Assembly: GCA_016926735.1 (NCBI GenBank)
Contig: JAFGOA010000219.1
Coordinates: 1-25,613, forward strand
Direction: 5' to 3'
Source of the DNA: Promethearchaeota archaeon
GTDB taxonomy: Archaea; Asgardarchaeota; Lokiarchaeia; Sigyniarchaeales; SOKP01
Length of the DNA: 25,613 nt
The notes under the pieces were generated by a model. The model saw only the letters and a list, made by a program, of their open reading frames with translations, ran no database searches and had not been told where the DNA came from. A program made the translations under genes and the position numbers. This document shows positions 5,819-15,862 of this stretch, in pieces. The stretch's first letter is position 1. Each line of letters begins with the position of its first letter.

Positions 5819-8743
5819 CTAAGATAACATTTGGATTTGAGATTTTATGAACATTAGCATTTGTCCAATCCGTATTGCTTGTGGTGTAGTTGCCATATTA
5901 AGTTTTTTAAAGATATCATAAGCTTCTTCGTAATTTTTTAAGATTTCTTGTAACAACTCTTTTGTAGGTTCTATTTGTCTTGATTGAATTTTATTAAATT
6001 GTGATCCTCCTATATTAGCTAATATCATCGCTTTTCCTATTAAATTTCCCATCTTTTCATAATTATCCATTGCTGTATGGAAATATTGTAATGCTTCTTC
6101 TTGTTTTCCTTGTTTCATTAAAATATTCCCTATTCCAGCTGAGCTATCTGCTATACCTGTTAAATTATTCAATCCTTTATCAATTTCAAGTGCTTTTTCG
6201 TAAAATTCTAAAGCTTTTATATGATTTTGTTGATAAAAATATAAACTACCAATGCATAGTAAATTTCTTGATTTACCTGCTAAATTTCCGATTTTTTCAT
6301 TAATTTCAAGAGCATTTTGTTGACAATTAATAGCTTCTTGTAGATTTTGAGATTTCATATATAAATCTCCCATATTCGTTAAGCAAAGCGCTTTAGCTGC
6401 TATATTCCCCACTTGATCATGCAATTTTAAGGCCAAATTATATTGATTCAATGCTTCAGGATAGTTACCTATTAAAGAATAGACATTAGCAATACCCACA
6501 TGATTTTCTGCAACTAGTGTGAGATTATCTAATTTTTCATTGATCTCAAGGGCTTGTTGATAATTTTGTAAAGCTTTTTGATGATCACCAAAATTTAAAT
6601 ATGCATTAGCTATATTAGTCAAATTTTCTGATTTTCCGGGAACATCACCAAGTTCTTCATTAATTTCCATAGATTTCTGATAATAATTAATTGCTTCTTG
6701 ATAATTACCCATAAAGTAATGAGAATTGCCTATGTTGAGCAAGGTTGTGGATTTATTTTTTAAATCATTAATATTTTCGCTTATTTCTAAAGATTTTTGA
6801 AAATATTCTAAAGCTTTAGAATAATTTCCTTGCAAATTATTTAAACTTCCAAAATTATTAAATACACGAGCTTTCATAGCTAATTCTCCTATTTGATCAC
6901 TAATTTCTAAAATTTCTTGATATATATTCTCAGTTTCTTTATACTCTCCTTTTCTAGAATGAAGGACTCCTATACTAATTAGAGTATTCATTTTTCTTTT
7001 TAGATCTCCCATTTGATTATTGATTTCAATAGCTTTTTTGTAATAATTCATAGCATCCTCATATTTTCCTTGAAGCATATACATAATCCCTATATTATTT
7101 AAATTTATAGATTTATCGCTTAAATCTCCCAATAAATTATCAATTTCTAAGGCTTCTTTAAAATTTTTCATTGCTTCTTCGTACTTACCTTGTTCTCTAT
7201 ATGCACCTGCTTTATTAGTAAGAATTATTGCTTTTATTGCTAAATTTCCAATCTTATCATTAATTTCTAAAGCATTTTGAAAATCTATAAGAGCACTTGG
7301 ATATTCGCCTTGGTTTAATTTTATAGATCCTAAATTAGTTAATGTTTTTACTAATACTTGCTTATTATCCGATTCTGTTAATAGCTCTTTTGCTTTTTCA
7401 AAAGAATTAACAGCATCATTATATTTACTTTGATCACCAAATACAGCACCAATATTATTTAAACATTCTATTTTTTGTTTTTTATCACCAATACTTTCAC
7501 AAATATGCAATCCTTCATTAAAGTTTTTTAATGCATCCTCATAATTTGATTTTAATCTAAAAATTCGGCCTTTTTTGATGAGAAAAGTGACTTTTGAATT
7601 TAAATCATTCTTTTCAATAGCAATTTCTAATCCTTTAGATGCGACTCTCATGGCATCATCAGGTTTTGATAATCGGTCAAAAAATTCGAAAGCAAATGCA
7701 TATTTCTTTAGATTATTAGTAAAAGTTATTACATTTTTCACATAATTTCTGTATTCTTGTGGATTAAATTGAATATTATTTAAATTTGGTCGTTGAATTT
7801 TAGGAAACATAGTATTCCAAAGTAGTGTTGATGAAAAATAAGAGGTATTAATATTAATCTTATAGATTTCTAAACTCATACCTTTGCTTTTGGCAATTTT
7901 AGCTATCTCGTTTAATAATATATCTTCTTTTTTTACAAAATCAGTCTCTATAGAAGACTCAAGTTTTAAAATTTCAATATCTTCTGTCCCTGTATGATTA
8001 ATCCATATAATTGTGGAAATTCCATGTAATTTTTTTAATGTTGGTCCTATATCAAAGTCATCACTACCAGAATAACCCATAATAGTTAGAGTAGAATCCT
8101 TTAAAACATTGAATAATGGTTCTTTCTTATAACTCTCAACGGTAAAAGTTTCTTCTTCACCTCGTTCTTTTCCCAATGATTCTAATGTTGTTATAAGAGT
8201 TTCCTTTGTTTCTATTCCTGTAATTATATTTTTATTAGTACCATGTATTTTTATGAGGGGAAATTTGCCTTTATCTTTTAATGATTCTGGATTTTTGTAT
8301 TTAAGAAAATCTTCTTTTGTAATTATTGGTATTATATTCGATTTTTCTTGTACTATTTTCATTAGAGCAAATTCAATAAGGTAATCAAAATTAGTAGTAA
8401 TCACCCAACTTCCTGATTTAATAGCATTTGCTATGGTATAATGTATAAGATTTGGCTCCGTGAAAGTGTCAAAATACTCCATAATTTTCAATTCAGGATC
8501 AAAATTGTGTTGTATTGTTTCTATTATTAATTCATATCGGAGACCTTTAAGATTGCGAATTCTGTCTATTTCTCCCTCTGGAGCCCCTAAACTTATTAAT
8601 ACATCAATAAATCCCATAGCGGAAGGAACCAAAGATGGTTTATCCATGGAAATACCTGCTCCGACTAAAAATACTAATTTCTTTTCTTTAGAATATAATT
8701 CATCCAGCTTTTCAATCGGAGACTCAAATAAAGTATATGACAT
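5819..8743 (-). CDS. SIR2-like (SIR2_2-type) domain fused to a long TPR array
   Basis: N-terminal LVFLVGAGIS, VITTNFD, LIKIHG, IMGYSGSDDFDI motifs of SIR2-like proteins; residues from about 346 to 955 form about 15 TPR units of 40 aa; no Walker A motif seen. Confidence 0.88.
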   Translation of the reverse strand: MSYTLFESPIEKLDELYSKEKKLVFLVGAGISMDKPSLVPSAMGFIDVLISLGAPEGEIDRIRNLKGLRYELIIETIQHNFDPELKIMEYFDTFTEPNLIHYTIANAIKSGSWVITTNFDYLIEFALMKIVQEKSNIIPIITKEDFLKYKNPESLKDKGKFPLIKIHGTNKNIITGIETKETLITTLESLGKERGEEETFTVESYKKEPLFNVLKDSTLTIMGYSGSDDFDIGPTLKKLHGISTIIWINHTGTEDIEILKLESSIETDFVKKEDILLNEIAKIAKSKGMSLEIYKININTSYFSSTLLWNTMFPKIQRPNLNNIQFNPQEYRNYVKNVITFTNNLKKYAFAFEFFDRLSKPDDAMRVASKGLEIAIEKNDLNSKVTFLIKKGRIFRLKSNYEDALKNFNEGLHICESIGDKKQKIECLNNIGAVFGDQSKYNDAVNSFEKAKELLTESDNKQVLVKTLTNLGSIKLNQGEYPSALIDFQNALEINDKIGNLAIKAIILTNKAGAYREQGKYEEAMKNFKEALEIDNLLGDLSDKSINLNNIGIMYMLQGKYEDAMNYYKKAIEINNQMGDLKRKMNTLISIGVLHSRKGEYKETENIYQEILEISDQIGELAMKARVFNNFGSLNNLQGNYSKALEYFQKSLEISENINDLKNKSTTLLNIGNSHYFMGNYQEAINYYQKSMEINEELGDVPGKSENLTNIANAYLNFGDHQKALQNYQQALEINEKLDNLTLVAENHVGIANVYSLIGNYPEALNQYNLALKLHDQVGNIAAKALCLTNMGDLYMKSQNLQEAINCQQNALEINEKIGNLAGKSRNLLCIGSLYFYQQNHIKALEFYEKALEIDKGLNNLTGIADSSAGIGNILMKQGKQEEALQYFHTAMDNYEKMGNLIGKAMILANIGGSQFNKIQSRQIEPTKELLQEILKNYEEAYDIFKKLNMATTPQAIRIGQMLMFIKSQIQMLS
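5880..7708 (-). repeat. 40-aa TPR repeats (about 15 units)
   Basis: Recurring LxN(I/L)Gxx(Y/F)xxxGxYxxAxxxxxxALEIxxxxG(D/N)L pattern at 120-bp spacing. Confidence 0.9.
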
Positions 8744-9789: not shown

Positions 9790-9981
9790 ATGACAAAATA
9801 TCTCAAAAAATGTAATAAATGCCAAAAATATGGGTTAGAAAATCCAGAATCAAAATGTCAATATTGTGGAGGAAAATTAATAAATCCAAATCCACCAAAG
9901 TATTCTCCAATAGATAAATATCAGAAATATAGATTAGATTTTTTTAAAACAGAATTTAAAAAGAAATTTATGTTAGATTAA
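9790..9981 (+). CDS. nop10: H/ACA RNP subunit Nop10
   Basis: CNKC...CQYCGG zinc ribbon followed by PPKYSPIDKYQKYR; directly downstream of aIF2alpha. Confidence 0.92.
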   Translation: MTKYLKKCNKCQKYGLENPESKCQYCGGKLINPNPPKYSPIDKYQKYRLDFFKTEFKKKFMLD

Positions 9982-10658
9982 TTTAATTCAATAAATTCAG
10001 CAACTTTTTCATTTACAAGGATTATAGCATTATCTTGAGGTAGATTAGCGATATCTTCTTTTATAAAAGGTCCATAATTTATAAGATCAATTCCTACCAA
10101 TGAAGGTGTTGTTTCTATAAATCTTATTATTCGATAAGTTATTTTATCAAATATATTTAAAGATTGTTTTTGATTTTGAAAATTTATTTCATTATCATTA
10201 GTTGAAATGCTTTGTTTGGTAATTTCAGAAAGCTTTGTTTCAGTTGAGATGTTATAGTTTGTTTTAATTTTTTCATACTCTTGAATATCTTCTCCTGATA
10301 TTGAAACAATTTTATCGTATCCTTTAAAAGAGGCAATTAGATTTTTATATAACAACTGCTCTGCTTCAAATAGATGGTTTAAATTAATCTCTTTGAGCAT
10401 AAGAGTGTTATTGATTATTTTAATCCTCCTTATTTTAAGAAGATCATCAAATAAAAAATTTATATTATTTTTAATTTGAAGATTTATTTCATTTATTATT
10501 TCATCATCATCTTTATATTTCTTTTCGAGAGCGTTTGCTTCTTTAAGTAATTCTTTATAATTTTTCAGATCCTCATCAGATAACGGAGTTACTTCAGCAG
10601 ATTCAAATTCTTTAACCCAATGTTTATAAAGTTCATTATAGCTAGAATCTTCGTTCAT
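9978..10658 (-). CDS. DNA replication complex GINS protein (Gins51/Gins15 type, A-B domain order)
   Basis: Helical A domain (LYKHWVKE...LLKIRRIKII...LFEAEQLLY) and C-terminal B domain IIRFIETTPSLVGIDLINYGPFIKEDIANLPQDNAIILV; downstream of priS. Confidence 0.9.
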   Translation of the reverse strand: MNEDSSYNELYKHWVKEFESAEVTPLSDEDLKNYKELLKEANALEKKYKDDDEIINEINLQIKNNINFLFDDLLKIRRIKIINNTLMLKEINLNHLFEAEQLLYKNLIASFKGYDKIVSISGEDIQEYEKIKTNYNISTETKLSEITKQSISTNDNEINFQNQKQSLNIFDKITYRIIRFIETTPSLVGIDLINYGPFIKEDIANLPQDNAIILVNEKVAEFIELN

Positions 10659-10750
10659 AGATAATGATATACAATTTTTTATTTTTTAATGATATAAGAC
10701 TATATAATCTTTCTTAGTAAAAAGAATTTCAGAATAATCCAAAAATATTT

Positions 10751-12025
10751 TTATTCTTCCAATATCGCAACATCTCTACTTAATAACAGGATCGCTATAT
10801 GATTTTCAATATCAATTATATCATCTTTAAAATAAGGACCATAAGTTTTATCTCTTATATAAAATTCGGGTATTTCTATAGACGATATCTTTATTTTTTG
10901 CTTATATTCATAACTTTCAAATACTATTGGATTAAGATGTTTTTTATTTTCATTTAATGGATTGAATTCATATAATTCTTCTAATGTTAGTGCTTGTACT
11001 TTAAATCCTGTTTTACCATGTAAAGATCCTGGATATCTAATCAATCTATGTATATCTATAGTTACTGGTTCATCTATTTCAACTCCAATTTCATGCACAA
11101 TACCCTTTAAAAATCTTTTCCATGTCGTTATACCAAATCCTTCGATATTCCATAAATTATAATCATTATTTTTGAGAATATTCAAAAAATAATCTTTTGA
11201 ATTTATGAAGCTTATAATTAGATTTTTACTTAATCCTATTTGTTCCAAAAATTTTGTAATTTCTTCATTCGTGTTATTTAACAGCATATTTTGAATCTTA
11301 TCGGTAATTTTTCTCGACCAGTCTTTATTATTATTTAGAAAACCAAAAATTTGTCCTGCATGCTCATCAAATCCAAGAATTTGAAAATTAATATTCCTAC
11401 CAGTAAAATAATCTACAAGTTCTCTTCTATCTTCGCTTGTTAATTGTCTTATTTTATCATTCTCAATCTTTAAATGGTATCCTCTATGTCCTGAAAAAGC
11501 AATTTGCATTTCATTAGCTTGTATATCAAAATCGGGTACTAAAAAATTATCAATAAGATTCAAAATCTCTTTTTTTGAAATATCTAAACATATTTCACAA
11601 AACCATGAAAATTTTTTAATTTTAAGACTCCCACATTTTGTACATTTTTCTATCATTCCCTTTCCAGAATGATTACATTCTTGACAGTACCAAAAATCAT
11701 GTTTGTCCTTACAAGGAGTATAAAAATGATCAACATCAATATCTATAATTAAATCGCAACCAACATAATCTTTATATTCCATTTCTTGATTATTCGGAAG
11801 ATTATATAAAGATCCACTTGAATACATATGTCTAGGTGGATTATTTACTGTATATTCTCTAAGGAGATTAATATCAGAGAATCCCATATGTCTTATCATT
11901 ATTTTTTTATCCCAAGGAATGAAACCAAATTCTCTTTTTTTTAAAGAGCTAACTGGAATTATTTCATCTTTTCTCTCGCGGTAATAAGATTGAAAAACAC
12001 GTTTTAAGTAGGTTGAATTAGTCAT
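10751..12025 (-). CDS. priS: DNA primase catalytic (small) subunit
   Basis: REFGF, DLIIDIDVDH (DxD), FSGHRGYH, IDEPVTIDIHRLIRYPGSLHGKTG motifs. Confidence 0.96.
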   Translation of the reverse strand: MTNSTYLKRVFQSYYRERKDEIIPVSSLKKREFGFIPWDKKIMIRHMGFSDINLLREYTVNNPPRHMYSSGSLYNLPNNQEMEYKDYVGCDLIIDIDVDHFYTPCKDKHDFWYCQECNHSGKGMIEKCTKCGSLKIKKFSWFCEICLDISKKEILNLIDNFLVPDFDIQANEMQIAFSGHRGYHLKIENDKIRQLTSEDRRELVDYFTGRNINFQILGFDEHAGQIFGFLNNNKDWSRKITDKIQNMLLNNTNEEITKFLEQIGLSKNLIISFINSKDYFLNILKNNDYNLWNIEGFGITTWKRFLKGIVHEIGVEIDEPVTIDIHRLIRYPGSLHGKTGFKVQALTLEELYEFNPLNENKKHLNPIVFESYEYKQKIKISSIEIPEFYIRDKTYGPYFKDDIIDIENHIAILLLSRDVAILEE

Positions 12026-13211
12026 TTTGCCCCTTTGATAATTTATATTGTTTTAATTGAGTATAAAATAGGGGATGCTTTATTTTTTGTTCTTGCTCTT
12101 TTTTTTTTGAAAAATAACCTTCGATGCATAATTTATCTTTATATTTGGTTGCCATACATAAATTTAAAGATTTTAATGTATCGCAAGAATGAGGACTATA
12201 TTCTTTCTTTTTAGCAAATTCTACTTGATACTGAGCAATTTGTTTGTTGAAATCAGGAGTTGCAGAGAAAATTTCTATTATATTATCTACAGGATAGTCC
12301 AGAGCAAGTAAAAAAAAAGTTAAGAATAATCGTGATATATGCGGAATATTTTGACCTTCTTTAATGAGGATTAATGTTTCTTTTACACAAGGAGGAAACA
12401 ACTCCATTAAATTTTTATCCTTTTCAAACCTCACTTGAATTGAATATTCAAAATCTTCTTTTTTTAACTCCCATAAACTATAAATATTATCATAGAGACT
12501 TTTAAAATTTTGATTGTTAAACAGAGATTTTCTCATATTTTCAATATTATCTTTATCAATTTGATTAATTTCCAGTATTTTTTTCCGAACATATTCTTGT
12601 ATTAATCTTGTTAGTTCTTTTGGGATTATATAAACATATCCTTTACTGAGAGTGTTATTTACCAGTTTCCGATAATCATCTTTTAAATTAGAAGATAAAT
12701 GTAAGAAATCCGTAAAATATAATTTAAAATTTGTTTTGAGTTCTTTTTTGTTATCTCTTATTAAAGTGGTATGATAAGTTTCTTCTTCAATGTATTGAAT
12801 ATTTAATCCTAAATTGATACAAATTTGATATAATATAAAAATACCATTTCTTCTATTGTTTCCCTCAAGTTCTTTTTTTATTTCACTATAAGTAACTTTA
12901 CTATAAAGATTAGCAATTCTATTTGTAATTCTCTTATTGTTTAGAACAAAAAGTATTATTTTTAATAAAAGATAAAATGAAATATTATTCTCATCAGGTT
13001 TGAAAGGAGGAAATATTTCTAAATTTTCAAAAGCTACACTAAAAAATTTTGATATTCTCTCTATTATAGGATCATATTGTTCATTATCAAAAATATCATT
13101 TATAAATTGAATAGGATCTTTTAGAGCAATATCACGATAAATATCCTTTAATGATGGAAGCCATGGATATTGTTGTAATAATTGTGAAAGATTGGAAGAA
13201 TTGTTACTCAT
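12018..13211 (-). CDS. priL: DNA primase large (Fe-S) subunit
   Basis: YPWL, LVNNTLSKGYVY, FPPC, PHISRL, FSATPDFN..IAQYQVE, PHSC..LKSLNLC...LC...IKHPL with four candidate Fe-S cysteines; overlaps priS by 8 bp; start placed at the ATG at 13211 (MSNNSS). Confidence 0.93.
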   Translation of the reverse strand: MSNNSSNLSQLLQQYPWLPSLKDIYRDIALKDPIQFINDIFDNEQYDPIIERISKFFSVAFENLEIFPPFKPDENNISFYLLLKIILFVLNNKRITNRIANLYSKVTYSEIKKELEGNNRRNGIFILYQICINLGLNIQYIEEETYHTTLIRDNKKELKTNFKLYFTDFLHLSSNLKDDYRKLVNNTLSKGYVYIIPKELTRLIQEYVRKKILEINQIDKDNIENMRKSLFNNQNFKSLYDNIYSLWELKKEDFEYSIQVRFEKDKNLMELFPPCVKETLILIKEGQNIPHISRLFLTFFLLALDYPVDNIIEIFSATPDFNKQIAQYQVEFAKKKEYSPHSCDTLKSLNLCMATKYKDKLCIEGYFSKKKEQEQKIKHPLFYTQLKQYKLSKGQND

Positions 13212-13595
13212 TTTGCAATCCCTTTTTTTGAATAAGAGGTGTTCCTTTAAATATATATCAACAATAAATATAAAAAATAAACCAAGACCCAAATTTATTT
13301 TTTTAATAATAATTATTTTATTGTGAAGATGAATTTTGCAAAATACTATTTTTTAAACTTTAAAAGAATATCTATCTTTTCATTAATAAATGAATCTGAA
13401 GCAGAATTCTCTTAAATATAACTAAATTTTTCTAAGTATCTTAGTAAAATGGAAATTTTATTTACTTAATATCAATAATTTCATTTTAAAGAATAATTAT
13501 AGATATAAGATTAATAGAAATAAATTTTATATATAGTTTTGGTGTAATTGTATGTTCTTATTTGACTTTTCTTATATTTAAATTGATTGGAATCA

Positions 13596-14306
13596 TTAGT
13601 AAAACATATTATATAATCTTTTATATATATTAGCTAATTGAGAGATTTTATAGCCATCGTTATATTGAAGATAGTAGGCAATATAAGTTGAAAGTCCTTG
13701 AGGATCATTTAACCATTGTAAAAAGCTTTCTACTTCCATTTTAAGAATAGGATTTATTTGTACACTTTGCTGTAAAAGTACTGTTGTTGCACTGTTCATG
13801 GATTGAGCAATGGTATTCATATTTGATGATGTTTCTATCTTATGATCTTTATGTTTGCTTTTCTTCTTATCCTTTGGTTTTGGTGGAGCTTTAGTTTTTT
13901 TTGATACTTTAACCCCTATTTGTAATCCTGTTTCCATCATAGCCGCTGCTCTCGCAACTGCAGGATATGCTTCATGAAACCAGCCTTTAGCTTTAGGATT
14001 TATATGAGCTACCATGTATTTATCACCACTTGGAGTAGTAGCTCCAACTAAATGTCCTTTTTTCTTTCTGTTTGTTCCTACAAAACGTTCAGGTTCCATT
14101 TGTAGAATGGAATATCTAATACCTCCTAATGTGACAGATTGTGCAGTTCCACTAGCCCAATTTGCGAGAAGTGTTTTTATTTCACCATTTATACTCCATT
14201 TTCCAATAGAAAATAGGTTTTTACCAGATCTATTGATAATAGCAATATCGGTAGCATCTGGGTAATTTTTTTGTAAAAATTTTGTTGCGTCTTTATAATT
14301 AACCAA
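13596..14306 (-). CDS. Asgard-type profilin domain with Lys-rich linker and C-terminal helical extension
   Basis: Residues 1 to about 125 carry IAIINRSG, KWSI, SVTLGGIRYSILQMEPERFVGTNRKKKGHLVG, VAHINPKA, matching the Asgard profilin pattern as I recall it (AII..DG..W.I; GxKY...ER..GTN..GKGH; Y.NP.A). TTG start preceded by GGAGGTG. Confidence 0.8.
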   Translation of the reverse strand: MVNYKDATKFLQKNYPDATDIAIINRSGKNLFSIGKWSINGEIKTLLANWASGTAQSVTLGGIRYSILQMEPERFVGTNRKKKGHLVGATTPSGDKYMVAHINPKAKGWFHEAYPAVARAAAMMETGLQIGVKVSKKTKAPPKPKDKKKSKHKDHKIETSSNMNTIAQSMNSATTVLLQQSVQINPILKMEVESFLQWLNDPQGLSTYIAYYLQYNDGYKISQLANIYKRLYNMFY

Positions 14307-14311
14307 TTCTA

Positions 14312-14318
14312 CACCTCC
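14312..14318 (-). promoter_or_regulatory. Shine-Dalgarno site of the profilin-like gene
   Basis: GGAGGTG 5 nt upstream of the TTG at 14306, inside the 42-bp gap after the upstream gene. Confidence 0.75.
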
Positions 14319-14348: not shown

Positions 14349-15743
14349 TTAAGGATTTAACCTTATCATATTTTTATTAGCATTATTTATCCAAGACTCT
14401 ACTTTCTCAAGTAACTCATATCTGTCTTTTTGACTTAAGCTTAAATTTGGGTTTTTCTTTTTATAAATATTTGCTAATTTACTCATTTCCCACATATAAT
14501 CTAAATGTAATACTAATTTTCGTAGATTATCTCTCGCAATTTCAATAGCTGATCCTATTGTTGGCATATCATAATTATCATTAATAATTGATCGAAGATA
14601 AAAAAGTATGTCTTTAATACTATTTGTTGGCATTTGAGGTAAAGATCTACTTTTAACAAATTCACTTCTCATTGTTTTTAAAACAAAGTCATCATTTTTT
14701 GGGGTATTATACCCCTCAATATTATAGATATTAGAGCGTGAATTATCTATTACTTGTTGATTATTATTATTATTATTTGTATCTGTGGAAATAATTTCTG
14801 GTTTATCTCTCCTTCTAATTCCCGTTGGCCAAGGTGATACTTCATTTAATCTACTCTCAGCAGAAATGAATAATGAATTCTTTAGATTTATATTTTTATC
14901 ACTCTTTTTCTTATCTATTATTAATTTTCCTGGGCCCTTTAAGTATTGAGCTGTCTTTTCCAATATAGAAGATAAATACATAGGATCATAATCAATAATA
15001 GAATAGACATTTTTCAATTGAAAAATCATCTTATCAATATCAGACATTTTTGAACTTGAAAATAGTTCTGAAAGAAAATCATCAACCCCAATAATGATTT
15101 CATTGATACCTGCTGTTGGGTTTATATATTTGGCATAATTTCCTTTTGATGATATTAAAATCTTATTATAATAATCCCAATGAGTACTCAGAATCATATG
15201 TCCATTATTTTTGATATCATATGTGTCAGGTTTTTTAATTGTGCTCATCATTTCCAAGATACTCTCTTTATATGGAATGAATAAATTTCTCATTAAAGCT
15301 CCTTTAATAAAAGTCTGTTTATTATTAGATTTAAATGATAAGTCTATAGGCACTTTTACAACCCTCTCACTATATATAACATCTTCATCATCTTGTAATG
15401 TAATTCTTTTTGAACTAGCGAGATGATCATATACAAAATCAGATAATATTAACCCGCTGAGTTGTCTACTATCGATTATATATCTACCTGATTTTAATTC
15501 AAATTTAGTAAAATAATATCCTAGACCAAATAAACAATGAATTATTCCCTTGTCAGTTACAATACTAGATTCTGTTCCTCCAAAAAAGATAACAATATCA
15601 GTTAAGATTTTTGTAATATCTTGATTTGCATACGTGCCTAATGTAGGAAACCCTAAAACTTTACTCCAACTGGGTATAACAAATAACATATTATTATTTA
15701 TTAGTGGAGCTTTTCTATTTTTATTAATTAAGCTAGAAGTCAT
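14349..15743 (-). CDS. Hypothetical protein, 464 aa: globular N-terminal region, low-complexity Asn-rich linker, helical C-terminal domain
   Basis: Long ORF in AT-rich DNA; ATG at 15743 with GAGGA at 15751..15755; (AAT)6 poly-Asn at 14760..14777; no family recognised. Confidence 0.8.
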   Translation of the reverse strand: MTSSLINKNRKAPLINNNMLFVIPSWSKVLGFPTLGTYANQDITKILTDIVIFFGGTESSIVTDKGIIHCLFGLGYYFTKFELKSGRYIIDSRQLSGLILSDFVYDHLASSKRITLQDDEDVIYSERVVKVPIDLSFKSNNKQTFIKGALMRNLFIPYKESILEMMSTIKKPDTYDIKNNGHMILSTHWDYYNKILISSKGNYAKYINPTAGINEIIIGVDDFLSELFSSSKMSDIDKMIFQLKNVYSIIDYDPMYLSSILEKTAQYLKGPGKLIIDKKKSDKNINLKNSLFISAESRLNEVSPWPTGIRRRDKPEIISTDTNNNNNNQQVIDNSRSNIYNIEGYNTPKNDDFVLKTMRSEFVKSRSLPQMPTNSIKDILFYLRSIINDNYDMPTIGSAIEIARDNLRKLVLHLDYMWEMSKLANIYKKKNPNLSLSQKDRYELLEKVESWINNANKNMIRLNP

Positions 15744-15862
15744 TTTGAAATCCTCGTAAAATAATTCTACGTAAGACTGAAAAAGTATTTCTTTTTTAAA
15801 AAAGTTTAAATATGTTAGTGTGAGATGTATGTTCTTCCTCATATATAAATTTTTTTTTTTCC

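What the first reader, a model, noticed from the sequence alone, without database searches (positions are those of the whole stretch)
13596..14306. Profilin with a roughly 110-aa C-terminal extension (polybasic linker plus helical domain)
Seen: an N-terminal domain with Asgard profilin motifs, then KVSKKTKAPPKPKDKKKSKHKDHK, an S/N/T/Q-rich stretch and an aromatic amphipathic helical domain (NPILKMEVESFLQWLNDPQGLSTYIAYYLQ...). Established: characterised Asgard and eukaryotic profilins are essentially single-domain proteins of about 125-150 aa that bind actin and are modulated by phospholipids. Inference: this is a multidomain profilin whose basic linker could tether it to anionic membrane or nucleic acid and whose helical domain could recruit a partner, giving a localised actin regulator. 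I do not know of a description of this architecture.
Basis: partly seen in the sequence, partly recalled or inferred. Interest (0 to 1): 0.75.

Follow-up and report, generated by a model that had tools for sequence, protein, structure and literature searches.

The report
Profilin with a shared docking tail
This Lokiarchaeial gene encodes a true profilin-fold protein joined by a floppy linker to a small three-helix module; the same module also sits on a second profilin, on Ras-like GTPases and on a stand-alone mini-protein, so it looks like an undescribed docking tag for actin regulators in close relatives of eukaryotes.

Summary
The ORF at 13596-14306 (minus strand, TTG start, GGAGGTG Shine-Dalgarno 5 nt upstream) encodes 236 aa in three parts:
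- a profilin domain (1-127);
- a disordered linker (128-181) containing a polybasic tract;
- a compact three-helix module (182-236).

The N-domain is a profilin, not roadblock or longin. All 49 Foldseek PDB hits at E<=0.001 are profilins, and Odin and Loki profilins rank first.

At least 200 full-length homologues exist, all unannotated. The polybasic linker is not a family trait: only 10 of 121 homologues have a net-positive linker, and the median net charge is -4.

New findings:
- The module is mobile. It occurs in a second profilin paralogue, in a conserved 50-55 aa stand-alone gene, and in Ras-family GTPases with poly-proline tracts (one also carries a gelsolin repeat).
- It was found only in one order: 45/45 sampled genomes there, 0/156 elsewhere in the phylum.
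- It matches no known fold or Pfam family.
- In 41 of 66 assessable genomes, a conserved unknown ~460-aa gene lies directly upstream.

Likely function: an actin-monomer regulator localised or assembled through a docking module. This function is inferred, not shown.

First-stage readers of this scan noted the same architecture in other genomes. No paper in the held library describes it.

The parts
13596..14306 (-). Whole CDS of the extended ('type A') profilin: 236 aa, TTG start, TAA stop at 13596-13598
   Evidence: At least 200 full-length homologues. Single copy in 68 of 121 genomes of the class.
14312..14318 (-). Shine-Dalgarno GGAGGTG, 5 nt upstream of the TTG start
   Evidence: Read directly. 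Fits translation as the second gene of an operon.
13926..14306 (-). Profilin-fold domain, residues 1-127, net charge +8
   Evidence: PDB sequence hits to Loki profilin-1/-2 and Odin profilin at E 2.5e-7 to 4.5e-7. AF2 pLDDT about 90. All 49 Foldseek hits at E<=0.001 are profilins, with 5zza_P at E 3e-10 and TM 0.86. Pfam PF00235 scores 18.1 bits, below the 25-bit cut-off.
13764..13925 (-). Disordered linker, residues 128-181 (54 aa, net charge +9)
   Evidence: pLDDT <50 over 131-181. Not alignable across the family. Family median is 34 aa with net charge -4.
13839..13910 (-). Polybasic tract, residues 133-156 (KVSKKTKAPPKPKDKKKSKHKDHK)
   Evidence: Comparable K-rich linkers occur in only 10 of 121 homologues.
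13599..13763 (-). C-terminal three-helix module, residues 182-236: mobile, order-restricted, no known family
   Evidence: AF2 on the module alone gives pLDDT 93.4 and three helices. Foldseek PDB gives 0 hits. VIA-align best Z is 4.8. The Atlas matches only Promethearchaeota hypothetical proteins. No meaningful Pfam or PDB-sequence match. Also found in other architectures.
14349..15743 (-). Upstream gene of the two-gene unit: conserved uncharacterised 464-aa protein. The true start is the ATG at 15743, not the 497-aa ORF start at 15842. A 42-nt gap separates it from the profilin gene.
   Evidence: 48-51% identical orthologues lie directly upstream of type A profilins in L010 and L011. Adjacent on the same strand in 41 of 66 assessable genomes. 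No Pfam, PDB or Atlas match.

Best explanation
The gene encodes a member of a distinct, conserved profilin subfamily ('type A') of one Lokiarchaeial order. The N-terminal 127 residues are a genuine profilin fold. They most likely bind monomeric Lokiactin through the usual beta-hairpin and C-terminal-helix face; this is inferred. A disordered linker of variable length and charge connects this domain to a ~55-aa three-helix module. The module is an autonomous, order-specific, mobile domain. The same genome carries it on a second profilin paralogue ('type B') and as a stand-alone 53-aa protein. Related genomes carry it on Ras-family GTPases with poly-proline tracts, one of which also has a gelsolin repeat. 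The most likely mechanism is that the module is a protein-protein docking domain. It would bind either a common receptor or other copies of itself, concentrating or co-assembling profilin-actin with other cytoskeletal and GTPase components at one site, with the linker acting as a flexible leash. In this genus the leash has become polybasic. That may add affinity for anionic lipid or nucleic acid, but it is not part of the family's core mechanism. The gene is usually the second gene of an operon with a conserved unknown ~460-aa protein, which is a candidate functional partner. Shown here: the fold, the architecture, the conservation, the module's mobility and taxonomic range, and the operon. 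Inferred: actin binding, the docking role, and the partnership with the upstream protein.
For: - Profilin identity: phmmer against PDB hits Loki profilin-1 (5yed, E 2.5e-7), Odin profilin (5zza, 3e-7), Loki profilin-2 (5zzb, 4.5e-7), and 7pbh and 6yrr at about 5e-3. The AF2 model has pLDDT about 90 in the N-domain. All 49 Foldseek PDB hits at E<=0.001 are profilins, and the best is Odin profilin at TM 0.86.
- The most invariant residues of the family (M70-A89 and K107-A122) lie in the hairpin and C-terminal-helix region, and the E-R-x-x-G-T-N...G-H motif is shared with Loki and Odin profilins.
- Family: at least 200 full-length homologues. It forms a well-supported clade, 100/96, and is single copy in 68 of 121 class genomes.
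- Module as an autonomous domain: pLDDT 93.4 when folded alone. Mean column identity is 51% across unrelated host proteins, with invariant W and G.
- Module mobility: Ras-family proteins P0162, P0174, P0183 and P0201 carry it, and P0201 also has a gelsolin repeat. Ras + poly-Pro + module genes occur in binned genomes G017 and G068.
- In the own genome, the type B paralogue is a profilin (7pbh E 1.6e-12) plus the module, and a 53-aa stand-alone module gene exists, conserved in 5 of 5 genomes checked.
- Range: 113 of 121 class genomes, all in three families of one order. In the phylum sample, 45 of 45 in f1+f2 and 0 of 156 in 25 other families.
- Operon: the ~460-aa gene lies directly 5' on the same strand in 41 of 66 assessable genomes (also 43-45).
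- The organism has the substrate system: 4 actin-family genes and at least 4 gelsolin-domain genes.
Against: - Nothing here shows actin binding. The Pfam profilin score (16.6-18.1 bits) is below the 25-bit gathering cut-off.
- The module has no detectable relative of known function, so 'docking' rests on its architecture and distribution alone.
- The stand-alone module gene sits next to a DEAD/DUF5814 helicase gene and a DnaJ-type zinc-finger gene, not next to cytoskeletal genes. The module may therefore not be specific to actin regulation.
- The upstream gene is not adjacent in about a third of genomes (for example G001, G040, G053, G038). Many of those genomes have only its long paralogue.
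- The Ras + module + gelsolin protein comes from one short unbinned metagenome contig.
Confidence: 0.5

Rival explanations
1. The module is an F-actin (Lokiactin filament) side-binding domain, a functional analogue of the villin headpiece or of the proposed domain X of Thor 1DGelX. It would tether profilin, GTPases and gelsolin directly to filaments rather than to another protein.
For: It is a small, aromatic-rich three-helix bundle at the end of a flexible linker on actin regulators. It sits on profilins and next to a gelsolin repeat. Akil et al. 2020 (PMC7444086) proposed that a C-terminal helical extension gives 1DGelX filament side-binding. The villin headpiece comparison is from my own knowledge.
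Against: No structural match to the villin headpiece or any actin-binding domain: Foldseek gave 0 hits and the best VIA Z was 4.8, with no headpiece among the top 50. The helices (15, 10 and 18 residues) are longer than in the headpiece. The stand-alone copy and the Ras-only hosts have no obvious need for filament binding.
Confidence: 0.2
2. The profilin fold has been repurposed. Types A and B would act with small GTPases, as roadblock/longin-type platforms do, not on actin. The module would link them to the Ras-like GTPases that carry the same module.
For: Profilin, roadblock and longin share a core fold (PMC10933270). The module is shared with Ras-family GTPases. In L041 a Ras gene overlaps a module + poly-Pro + profilin-like gene. 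The genome already has two canonical short profilins.
Against: All significant fold matches are profilins and none is roadblock or longin. The Asgard profilin signature E-R-x-x-G-T-N...G-H is kept. The three-strand insert that distinguishes profilin from roadblock is predicted (strands 63-70, 74-78 and 85-90).
Confidence: 0.12
3. One reading: the polybasic linker is the key feature. It would tether the profilin to anionic membrane or nucleic acid, with the helical domain as an accessory.
For: The window protein's linker has net charge +9 over 54 aa, on top of a +8 profilin domain. Characterised Asgard profilins are modulated by phosphoinositides (Akil & Robinson 2018, as summarised).
Against: Only 10 of 121 homologues have a linker with net charge of +5 or more. 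The family median is -4, and most linkers are acidic 'FIETKVEL...' stretches. The module, not the linker, is the conserved part. The model could hold only as a genus-level add-on.
Confidence: 0.1
4. The module is an intramolecular regulator that folds back on the profilin domain (autoinhibition), released by a signal.
For: It is attached through a long flexible linker right after the C-terminal helix, which contributes to both ligand faces of profilins.
Against: The same module occurs alone and on unrelated domains. In the full-length AF2 model the module's confidence drops (pLDDT 70-83 against 93 alone) and pTM is only 0.53, so no confident docking onto the N-domain is seen.
Confidence: 0.08

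Closest known systems
Loki profilin-1/-2 and Odin profilin (Akil & Robinson 2018; PDB 5yed, 5yee, 5zzb, 5zza)
   Same: Same fold and detectable sequence homology (E about 3e-7; Foldseek E 3e-10 to 2e-9, TM 0.77-0.86). Shares the E-R-x-x-G-T-N...G-H hairpin motif and the same phylum.
   Different: Those are single-domain proteins of 119-136 aa. This one has an extra 54-aa linker and a 55-aa module, forms a separate clade, and coexists with two canonical short profilins in the same genome. Only 22-27% identity.
Heimdall and Thor profilins with N-terminal extensions (PDB 6yrr, 7pbh; Survery 2021; Inturi 2022)
   Same: Asgard profilins whose core is decorated by an extra segment. The type B paralogue is closest to 7pbh (E 1.6e-12).
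   Different: Their extension is N-terminal, short and largely unstructured. Here the addition is C-terminal and ends in an independently folding domain that also occurs on other proteins.
Thor 1DGelX (gelsolin domain + C-terminal 'domain X'; Akil et al. 2020, PMC7444086)
   Same: The same design logic: an Asgard actin-regulator core plus a C-terminal helical extension of unknown family, thought to add localisation or filament binding.
   Different: Different core (gelsolin against profilin). Homology between domain X and this module was not tested because no sequence was at hand. The own genome's gelsolin-domain genes do not carry the module.
Villin headpiece on a gelsolin-type core (own knowledge)
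   Same: A small C-terminal three-helix, aromatic-core domain on a flexible linker that gives an actin regulator a second attachment point.
   Different: No sequence or structural similarity was detected. The helices are longer, the function is unknown, and it is a eukaryotic domain.

Membership tests
Profilin (Pfam PF00235 / Asgard profilins) | Profilin fold: antiparallel beta-sheet with the three-strand insert, flanked by N- and C-terminal helices | tested here: met
   AF2 elements are H4-14, seven strands, then H109-126, with pLDDT about 90. All 49 Foldseek PDB hits at E<=0.001 are profilins.
Profilin (Pfam PF00235 / Asgard profilins) | Significant sequence similarity to characterised profilins | tested here: met
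   phmmer against PDB: 5yed 2.5e-7, 5zza 3e-7, 5zzb 4.5e-7. Some relatives carry precomputed PF00235 hits, and one is named 'profilin family protein'.
Profilin (Pfam PF00235 / Asgard profilins) | Score above the Pfam gathering threshold (25 bits) | tested here: not met
   16.6 bits for the full protein and 18.1 bits for residues 1-130. The model is built mostly on eukaryotic sequences. One canonical short profilin of the same genome scores only 25.4 bits and the other 30.3.
Profilin (Pfam PF00235 / Asgard profilins) | Binds monomeric actin and modulates polymerisation | not testable with these tools
   Indirect only: the conserved hairpin and C-helix face, and actin and gelsolin genes in the genome.
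Profilin (Pfam PF00235 / Asgard profilins) | Single-domain architecture of about 120-150 aa | tested here: not met
   236 aa, with linker and extra module. The extension is conserved in the family.
Roadblock/LC7, longin (considered as an alternative for the N-domain) | Better structural match to roadblock or longin than to profilin; central helix instead of the three-strand insert | tested here: not met
   No roadblock or longin chain appears among the 49 significant Foldseek hits. The three-strand region is predicted.
Villin headpiece / known small helical actin-binding or ubiquitin-binding modules (considered for the C-terminal module) | Detectable sequence or fold similarity | tested here: inconclusive
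   Foldseek PDB gave 0 hits. The best VIA-align Z is 4.8, in the noise range for helical bundles. Pfam and PDB profile searches gave only chance-level hits. Absence from the lists does not exclude a distant relationship.
New 'Loki three-helix module' family (defined here) | About 55 aa with consensus DPxLKxE(I/V)xxFLxW(I/V)K(D/N)xxGLxxYIxYYLxQN(D/N)xxxISxL(A/S)xIYxxL; three helices; autonomous fold | tested here: met
   Residues 182-236 score 100.9 bits against the module HMM. Alignment A2. AF2 pLDDT 93.4.

The most novel reading that the evidence does not exclude
The three-helix module is a homo- or heterotypic docking domain. It would assemble two profilin paralogues, poly-proline-bearing Ras-like GTPases, gelsolin-domain proteins and a mini-protein competitor or adaptor into one actin-regulatory signalling complex. 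This would be an independently evolved archaeal counterpart of GTPase-to-actin coupling by formin- or WASP-type scaffolds, with the conserved ~460-aa operon partner as a new actin-associated factor.
Probability: 0.2. Interest if true: 0.85.

Novelty: new variant of a known kind. Interest (0 to 1): 0.62.

Why it matters
Asgard archaea are thought to regulate actin mainly with small single-domain profilins and with gelsolins. How that machinery is localised or coupled to signalling is an open question for the origin of the eukaryotic cytoskeleton.

This locus shows that in one large Lokiarchaeial order, two of the four profilin-fold genes per genome are modular. They share a previously undescribed domain with Ras-family GTPases and a mini-protein.

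That gives concrete, cheap experiments:
- test the module's oligomeric state and pull-down partners;
- test whether the module co-sediments with filaments;
- compare truncated and full-length profilin in polymerisation assays.

It also gives two new candidate components, the module and the ~460-aa operon partner, to look for in co-IP and localisation data. If the module proves to be a docking tag, it would be the first evidence of scaffolded actin regulation in archaea. If it does not, the result is still a clean definition of a new profilin subfamily and a new domain family.

Tried and rejected
- Complex prediction of the upstream 464-aa protein (A5) with the full-length profilin (A1): no verdict, score 0.00 in both runs, controls not run. 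This is neither for nor against binding.
- Homology between the module and the C-terminus of the upstream protein, prompted by the shared S-x-LANIYK motif. BLASTP matched 12 residues (E 0.017). hhalign aligned 11 columns at 5.8% probability. It is a short motif only, not a shared domain.
- Known-fold search for the module: Foldseek PDB gave 0 hits. VIA-align over 48,161 chains gave a best Z of 4.8, which is noise for helical bundles. The Atlas returned only its own lineage.
- Pfam scan of 28 module sequences and a PDB profile search gave only chance-level hits.
- Upstream protein: no Pfam, PDB-profile or Atlas match.
- Search for module-bearing proteins longer than 413 aa with the window module as query found nothing, which is weak evidence. 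The profile search for proteins over 108 aa was capped at 8,000 candidates and returned almost only profilin + module proteins. The architecture census is therefore incomplete.
- The first attempt to scan the named genome collection with A2 failed because no stretch was conserved enough. The second, with A6, returned 105 loci, and the 80 kept are all titled as uncultured MAGs, one of them under a bacterial name (L099, 'Candidatus Nanopelagicaceae bacterium'), so I could not show the module in a cultured strain.
- Literature: no held paper describes a profilin with this C-terminal domain. Akil & Robinson 2018 and Ponlachantra et al. 2023 are not held, and the supplements of the 2026 crawling-motility paper are not held either. 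Prior mention cannot be excluded.
- Rejected: fusion or assembly artefact (conserved in hundreds of contigs); a downstream ATG start (the first Met is residue 70, inside the fold); a roadblock or longin reading.

Full report
**1. What is in the sequence**

The ORF at 13596-14306 (minus strand) encodes 236 aa from a TTG start. Orthologues begin MVNYK at the same position. A GGAGGTG Shine-Dalgarno lies 5 nt upstream at 14312-14318, so the start is sound.

The polybasic tract is residues 133-156. The helical-domain string is residues 185-214.

AF2 on a 28-sequence alignment gives three parts:
- a confident alpha/beta domain: H4-14, seven strands, H109-126, pLDDT about 84-95;
- a disordered stretch at 131-181, pLDDT <50;
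- three helices at 186-200, 204-214 and 218-235.

**2. The N-terminal domain is a profilin**

- Pfam PF00235 matches weakly: 16.6-18.1 bits against a 25-bit cut-off.
- phmmer against PDB sequences hits exactly the characterised Asgard profilins. Loki profilin-1 (5yed) is at E 2.5e-7, Odin profilin (5zza) at 3e-7, and Loki profilin-2 (5zzb) at 4.5e-7. 7pbh and 6yrr are at about 5e-3.
- Foldseek of the model against the PDB returns 49 hits at E<=0.001, and every one is a profilin. The top hit is Odin profilin (E 3e-10, TM 0.86).
- No roadblock, longin or GAF chain appears.
- The most invariant stretches of the family are M70-A89 and K107-A122. They cover the beta-hairpin and the start of the C-terminal helix, and include the E-R-x-x-G-T-N...G-H motif shared with Loki and Odin profilins.
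- In profilin-actin complexes this is the actin-contacting face. That rests on established knowledge of profilin:actin structures and is an inference here.

**3. The family**

- At least 200 proteins of 206-236 aa match over 100% of the length at about 50% identity. All are 'hypothetical protein' from Lokiarchaeial ('Promethearchaeota') MAGs.
- In a sample of 121 genomes of the class, the N-domain is found as a single copy in 68.
- In a tree of profilin domains the family forms a supported clade (100/96). It is separate from the genome's canonical short profilins.
- The own genome is 3.88 Mb and 99% complete. It has four profilin-fold genes:
  - two canonical genes of 133 and 124 aa;
  - this 'type A' gene;
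  - a 203-aa 'type B' gene (L001:1495-2106, minus strand). It is also a profilin (7pbh E 1.6e-12, 5zza 6e-11) with the same C-terminal module, and is 28% identical to type A.
- The genome also has four actin-family genes and at least four gelsolin-domain genes.

**4. The linker**

- Across 121 type A homologues the linker is 24-56 aa (median 34), with median net charge -4.
- Only 10 have a net charge of +5 or more. The window protein (54 aa, +9) and its genus-level relatives are among them (also visible).
- The polybasic tract is therefore real here but lineage-specific. It cannot be the family's defining mechanism.

**5. The C-terminal domain is a mobile, order-specific module**

Folded alone from a 28-sequence alignment drawn from different host proteins, it is a compact three-helix bundle (pLDDT 93.4). 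W and G are invariant, and a GLxxYIxYYLxQN core is conserved.

An exhaustive representative search found the module on several other host types:
- Ras-family GTPases (P0162, P0174, P0183). P0201 is Ras + module + a gelsolin repeat.
- A protein with coiled coil + module + poly-proline + profilin-like domain + zinc ribbon (P0134).
- Proteins with unknown N-termini (P0197).

Ras + poly-Pro + module genes are present in binned genomes of the same family (L043:981-2039, L044:1114-2538).

A 50-55 aa stand-alone module gene exists in the own genome (L003:1489-1650). It is conserved in 5 of 5 genomes inspected, at 38-64% identity. In 4 of the 5 it lies next to a DEAD/DUF5814 helicase gene and a divergently transcribed DnaJ-type zinc-finger gene.

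Genomes carry 2-4 copies.

Distribution:
- 113 of 121 class genomes, all in three families of one order.
- In a phylum-wide sample, 45 of 45 genomes of families f1 and f2, and 0 of 156 genomes of 25 other families.
- These are samples, so the correct wording is 'not found in those searched'.
- Some MAG-derived proteins labelled Sigynarchaeota show partial matches.

No known relative was found:
- Foldseek PDB gave 0 hits.
- The best VIA-align Z was 4.8.
- The ESM Atlas returned only Promethearchaeota hypothetical clusters (TM 0.85-0.94); everything else was at TM 0.51 or below.
- Pfam and PDB profile searches gave chance-level hits only.

**6. The two-gene unit**

The upstream ORF is best read as 464 aa from the ATG at 15743. 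It is 48-51% identical to genes that sit 1-14 nt upstream of type A orthologues in L010 and L011.

I matched by hand the coordinates from two searches of the same 121 genomes. The ~460-aa gene is directly 5' on the same strand in 41 of 66 assessable type A genomes. One more genome has a remnant, and two are cut by contig ends.

Where the pair is not adjacent, the genome often has only a long paralogue. That paralogue is 580-740 aa with a highly charged E/K/R-rich tail. The own-genome copy is L013:1396-3258.

The protein has no Pfam, PDB or Atlas relative.

The S-x-LANIYK motif shared with the module's third helix is conserved in both families. It spans only about 11 columns (hhalign probability 5.8%), so it is a motif and not a shared domain.

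**7. Mechanism**

Shown:
- a profilin fold;
- a flexible leash;
- an autonomous conserved module that is reused on a second profilin, on Ras-like GTPases (often next to poly-proline tracts), beside a gelsolin repeat, and alone;
- operon linkage to an unknown protein.

Most likely (inferred, about 0.5): the module is a docking domain that brings profilin-actin to a common partner or to other module-bearing proteins. The polybasic leash of this genus would be an optional add-on.

Rivals:
- filament side-binding, like the villin headpiece or the proposed domain X of Thor 1DGelX;
- a fold repurposed for GTPase regulation;
- autoinhibition.

Each is listed in the report with the result that would refute it.

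**8. Novelty**

No paper in the held library describes this architecture. L. ossiferum is reported simply to have 'three profilins'. Key subscription papers and supplements are not held, so earlier mention cannot be ruled out.

One database names a relative 'profilin family protein'.

First-stage readers of this scan noted the same architecture on other genomes. Those notes are unchecked and do not count as support.

I class it as a new variant of a known kind: a profilin subfamily with an undescribed accessory domain. The domain itself is a new, order-restricted family.

Noticed in passing
window 14349-15842 (-): The mechanical ORF is 497 aa, but orthologues and the genome-wide profile match start at the ATG at 15743, giving 464 aa. 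The protein family is conserved in 90 of 121 class genomes and has no Pfam, PDB or Atlas relative. It has a long paralogue (580-740 aa) with a highly charged E/K/R-rich C-terminal tail; the own-genome copy is L013:1396-3258.
   Followed up: partly
window 13617-13650 and 14440-14480 (both genes, - strand): A short motif, S-x-LANIYK, occurs in helix 3 of the module and in the C-terminal helical region of the upstream protein. It is conserved in both families at profile level, but only about 11 columns align (hhalign probability 5.8%). It could be chance or a shared short binding helix.
   Followed up: yes
L003:1489-1650 (+) = G000:C100:36130-36291: A stand-alone 53-aa module gene, conserved at 38-64% identity in 5 of 5 genomes checked across two families. 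In 4 of the 5 it lies upstream of an approximately 780-970 aa DEAD/Helicase_C/DUF5814 helicase gene and is divergent from a DnaJ-CXXCXGXG zinc-finger protein gene. It is probably a real micro-protein that gene callers may miss.
   Followed up: partly
L001:1495-2106 (-) = G000:C130: A second profilin + module paralogue ('type B', 203 aa). It is closer to Thor and Odin profilins than type A is, and is preceded by a 151-aa C2H2 zinc-finger protein gene. By open-frame size, proteins of this length (about 200-225 aa) give most of the best module matches across both families of the order, but they were not typed as A or B.
   Followed up: partly
L043:981-2039 (-), L044:1114-2538 (+), L040:730-2019 (+), L041:2356-4231 (+): Ras-family GTPases fused to poly-proline tracts, zinc ribbons and the module. 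One (P0201) also has a gelsolin repeat. In L041 a Ras gene overlaps by 44 nt a module + poly-Pro + profilin-like + zinc-ribbon gene, which may be one frameshifted fusion gene.
   Followed up: partly
window 9978-13292 (-): Directly downstream on the same strand lie the genes for the primase large subunit (12018-13292), the primase small subunit (10751-12025, overlapping by 8 nt) and a GINS51-like protein (9978-10658). This is a replication gene cluster. Its linkage to the profilin pair was not checked in other genomes.
   Followed up: no
window 5819-8743 (-): A 974-aa protein with a SIR2_2 domain (PF13289, E 2.7e-8) followed by many TPR repeats. Other readers flagged it as a possible defence protein. 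It was only scanned with Pfam here.
   Followed up: no
L099 (DATKTW010000006.1): A contig carrying a typical module-bearing gene is titled 'Candidatus Nanopelagicaceae bacterium' in the public record. This is probably a mis-binned or mislabelled Lokiarchaeial contig.
   Followed up: no
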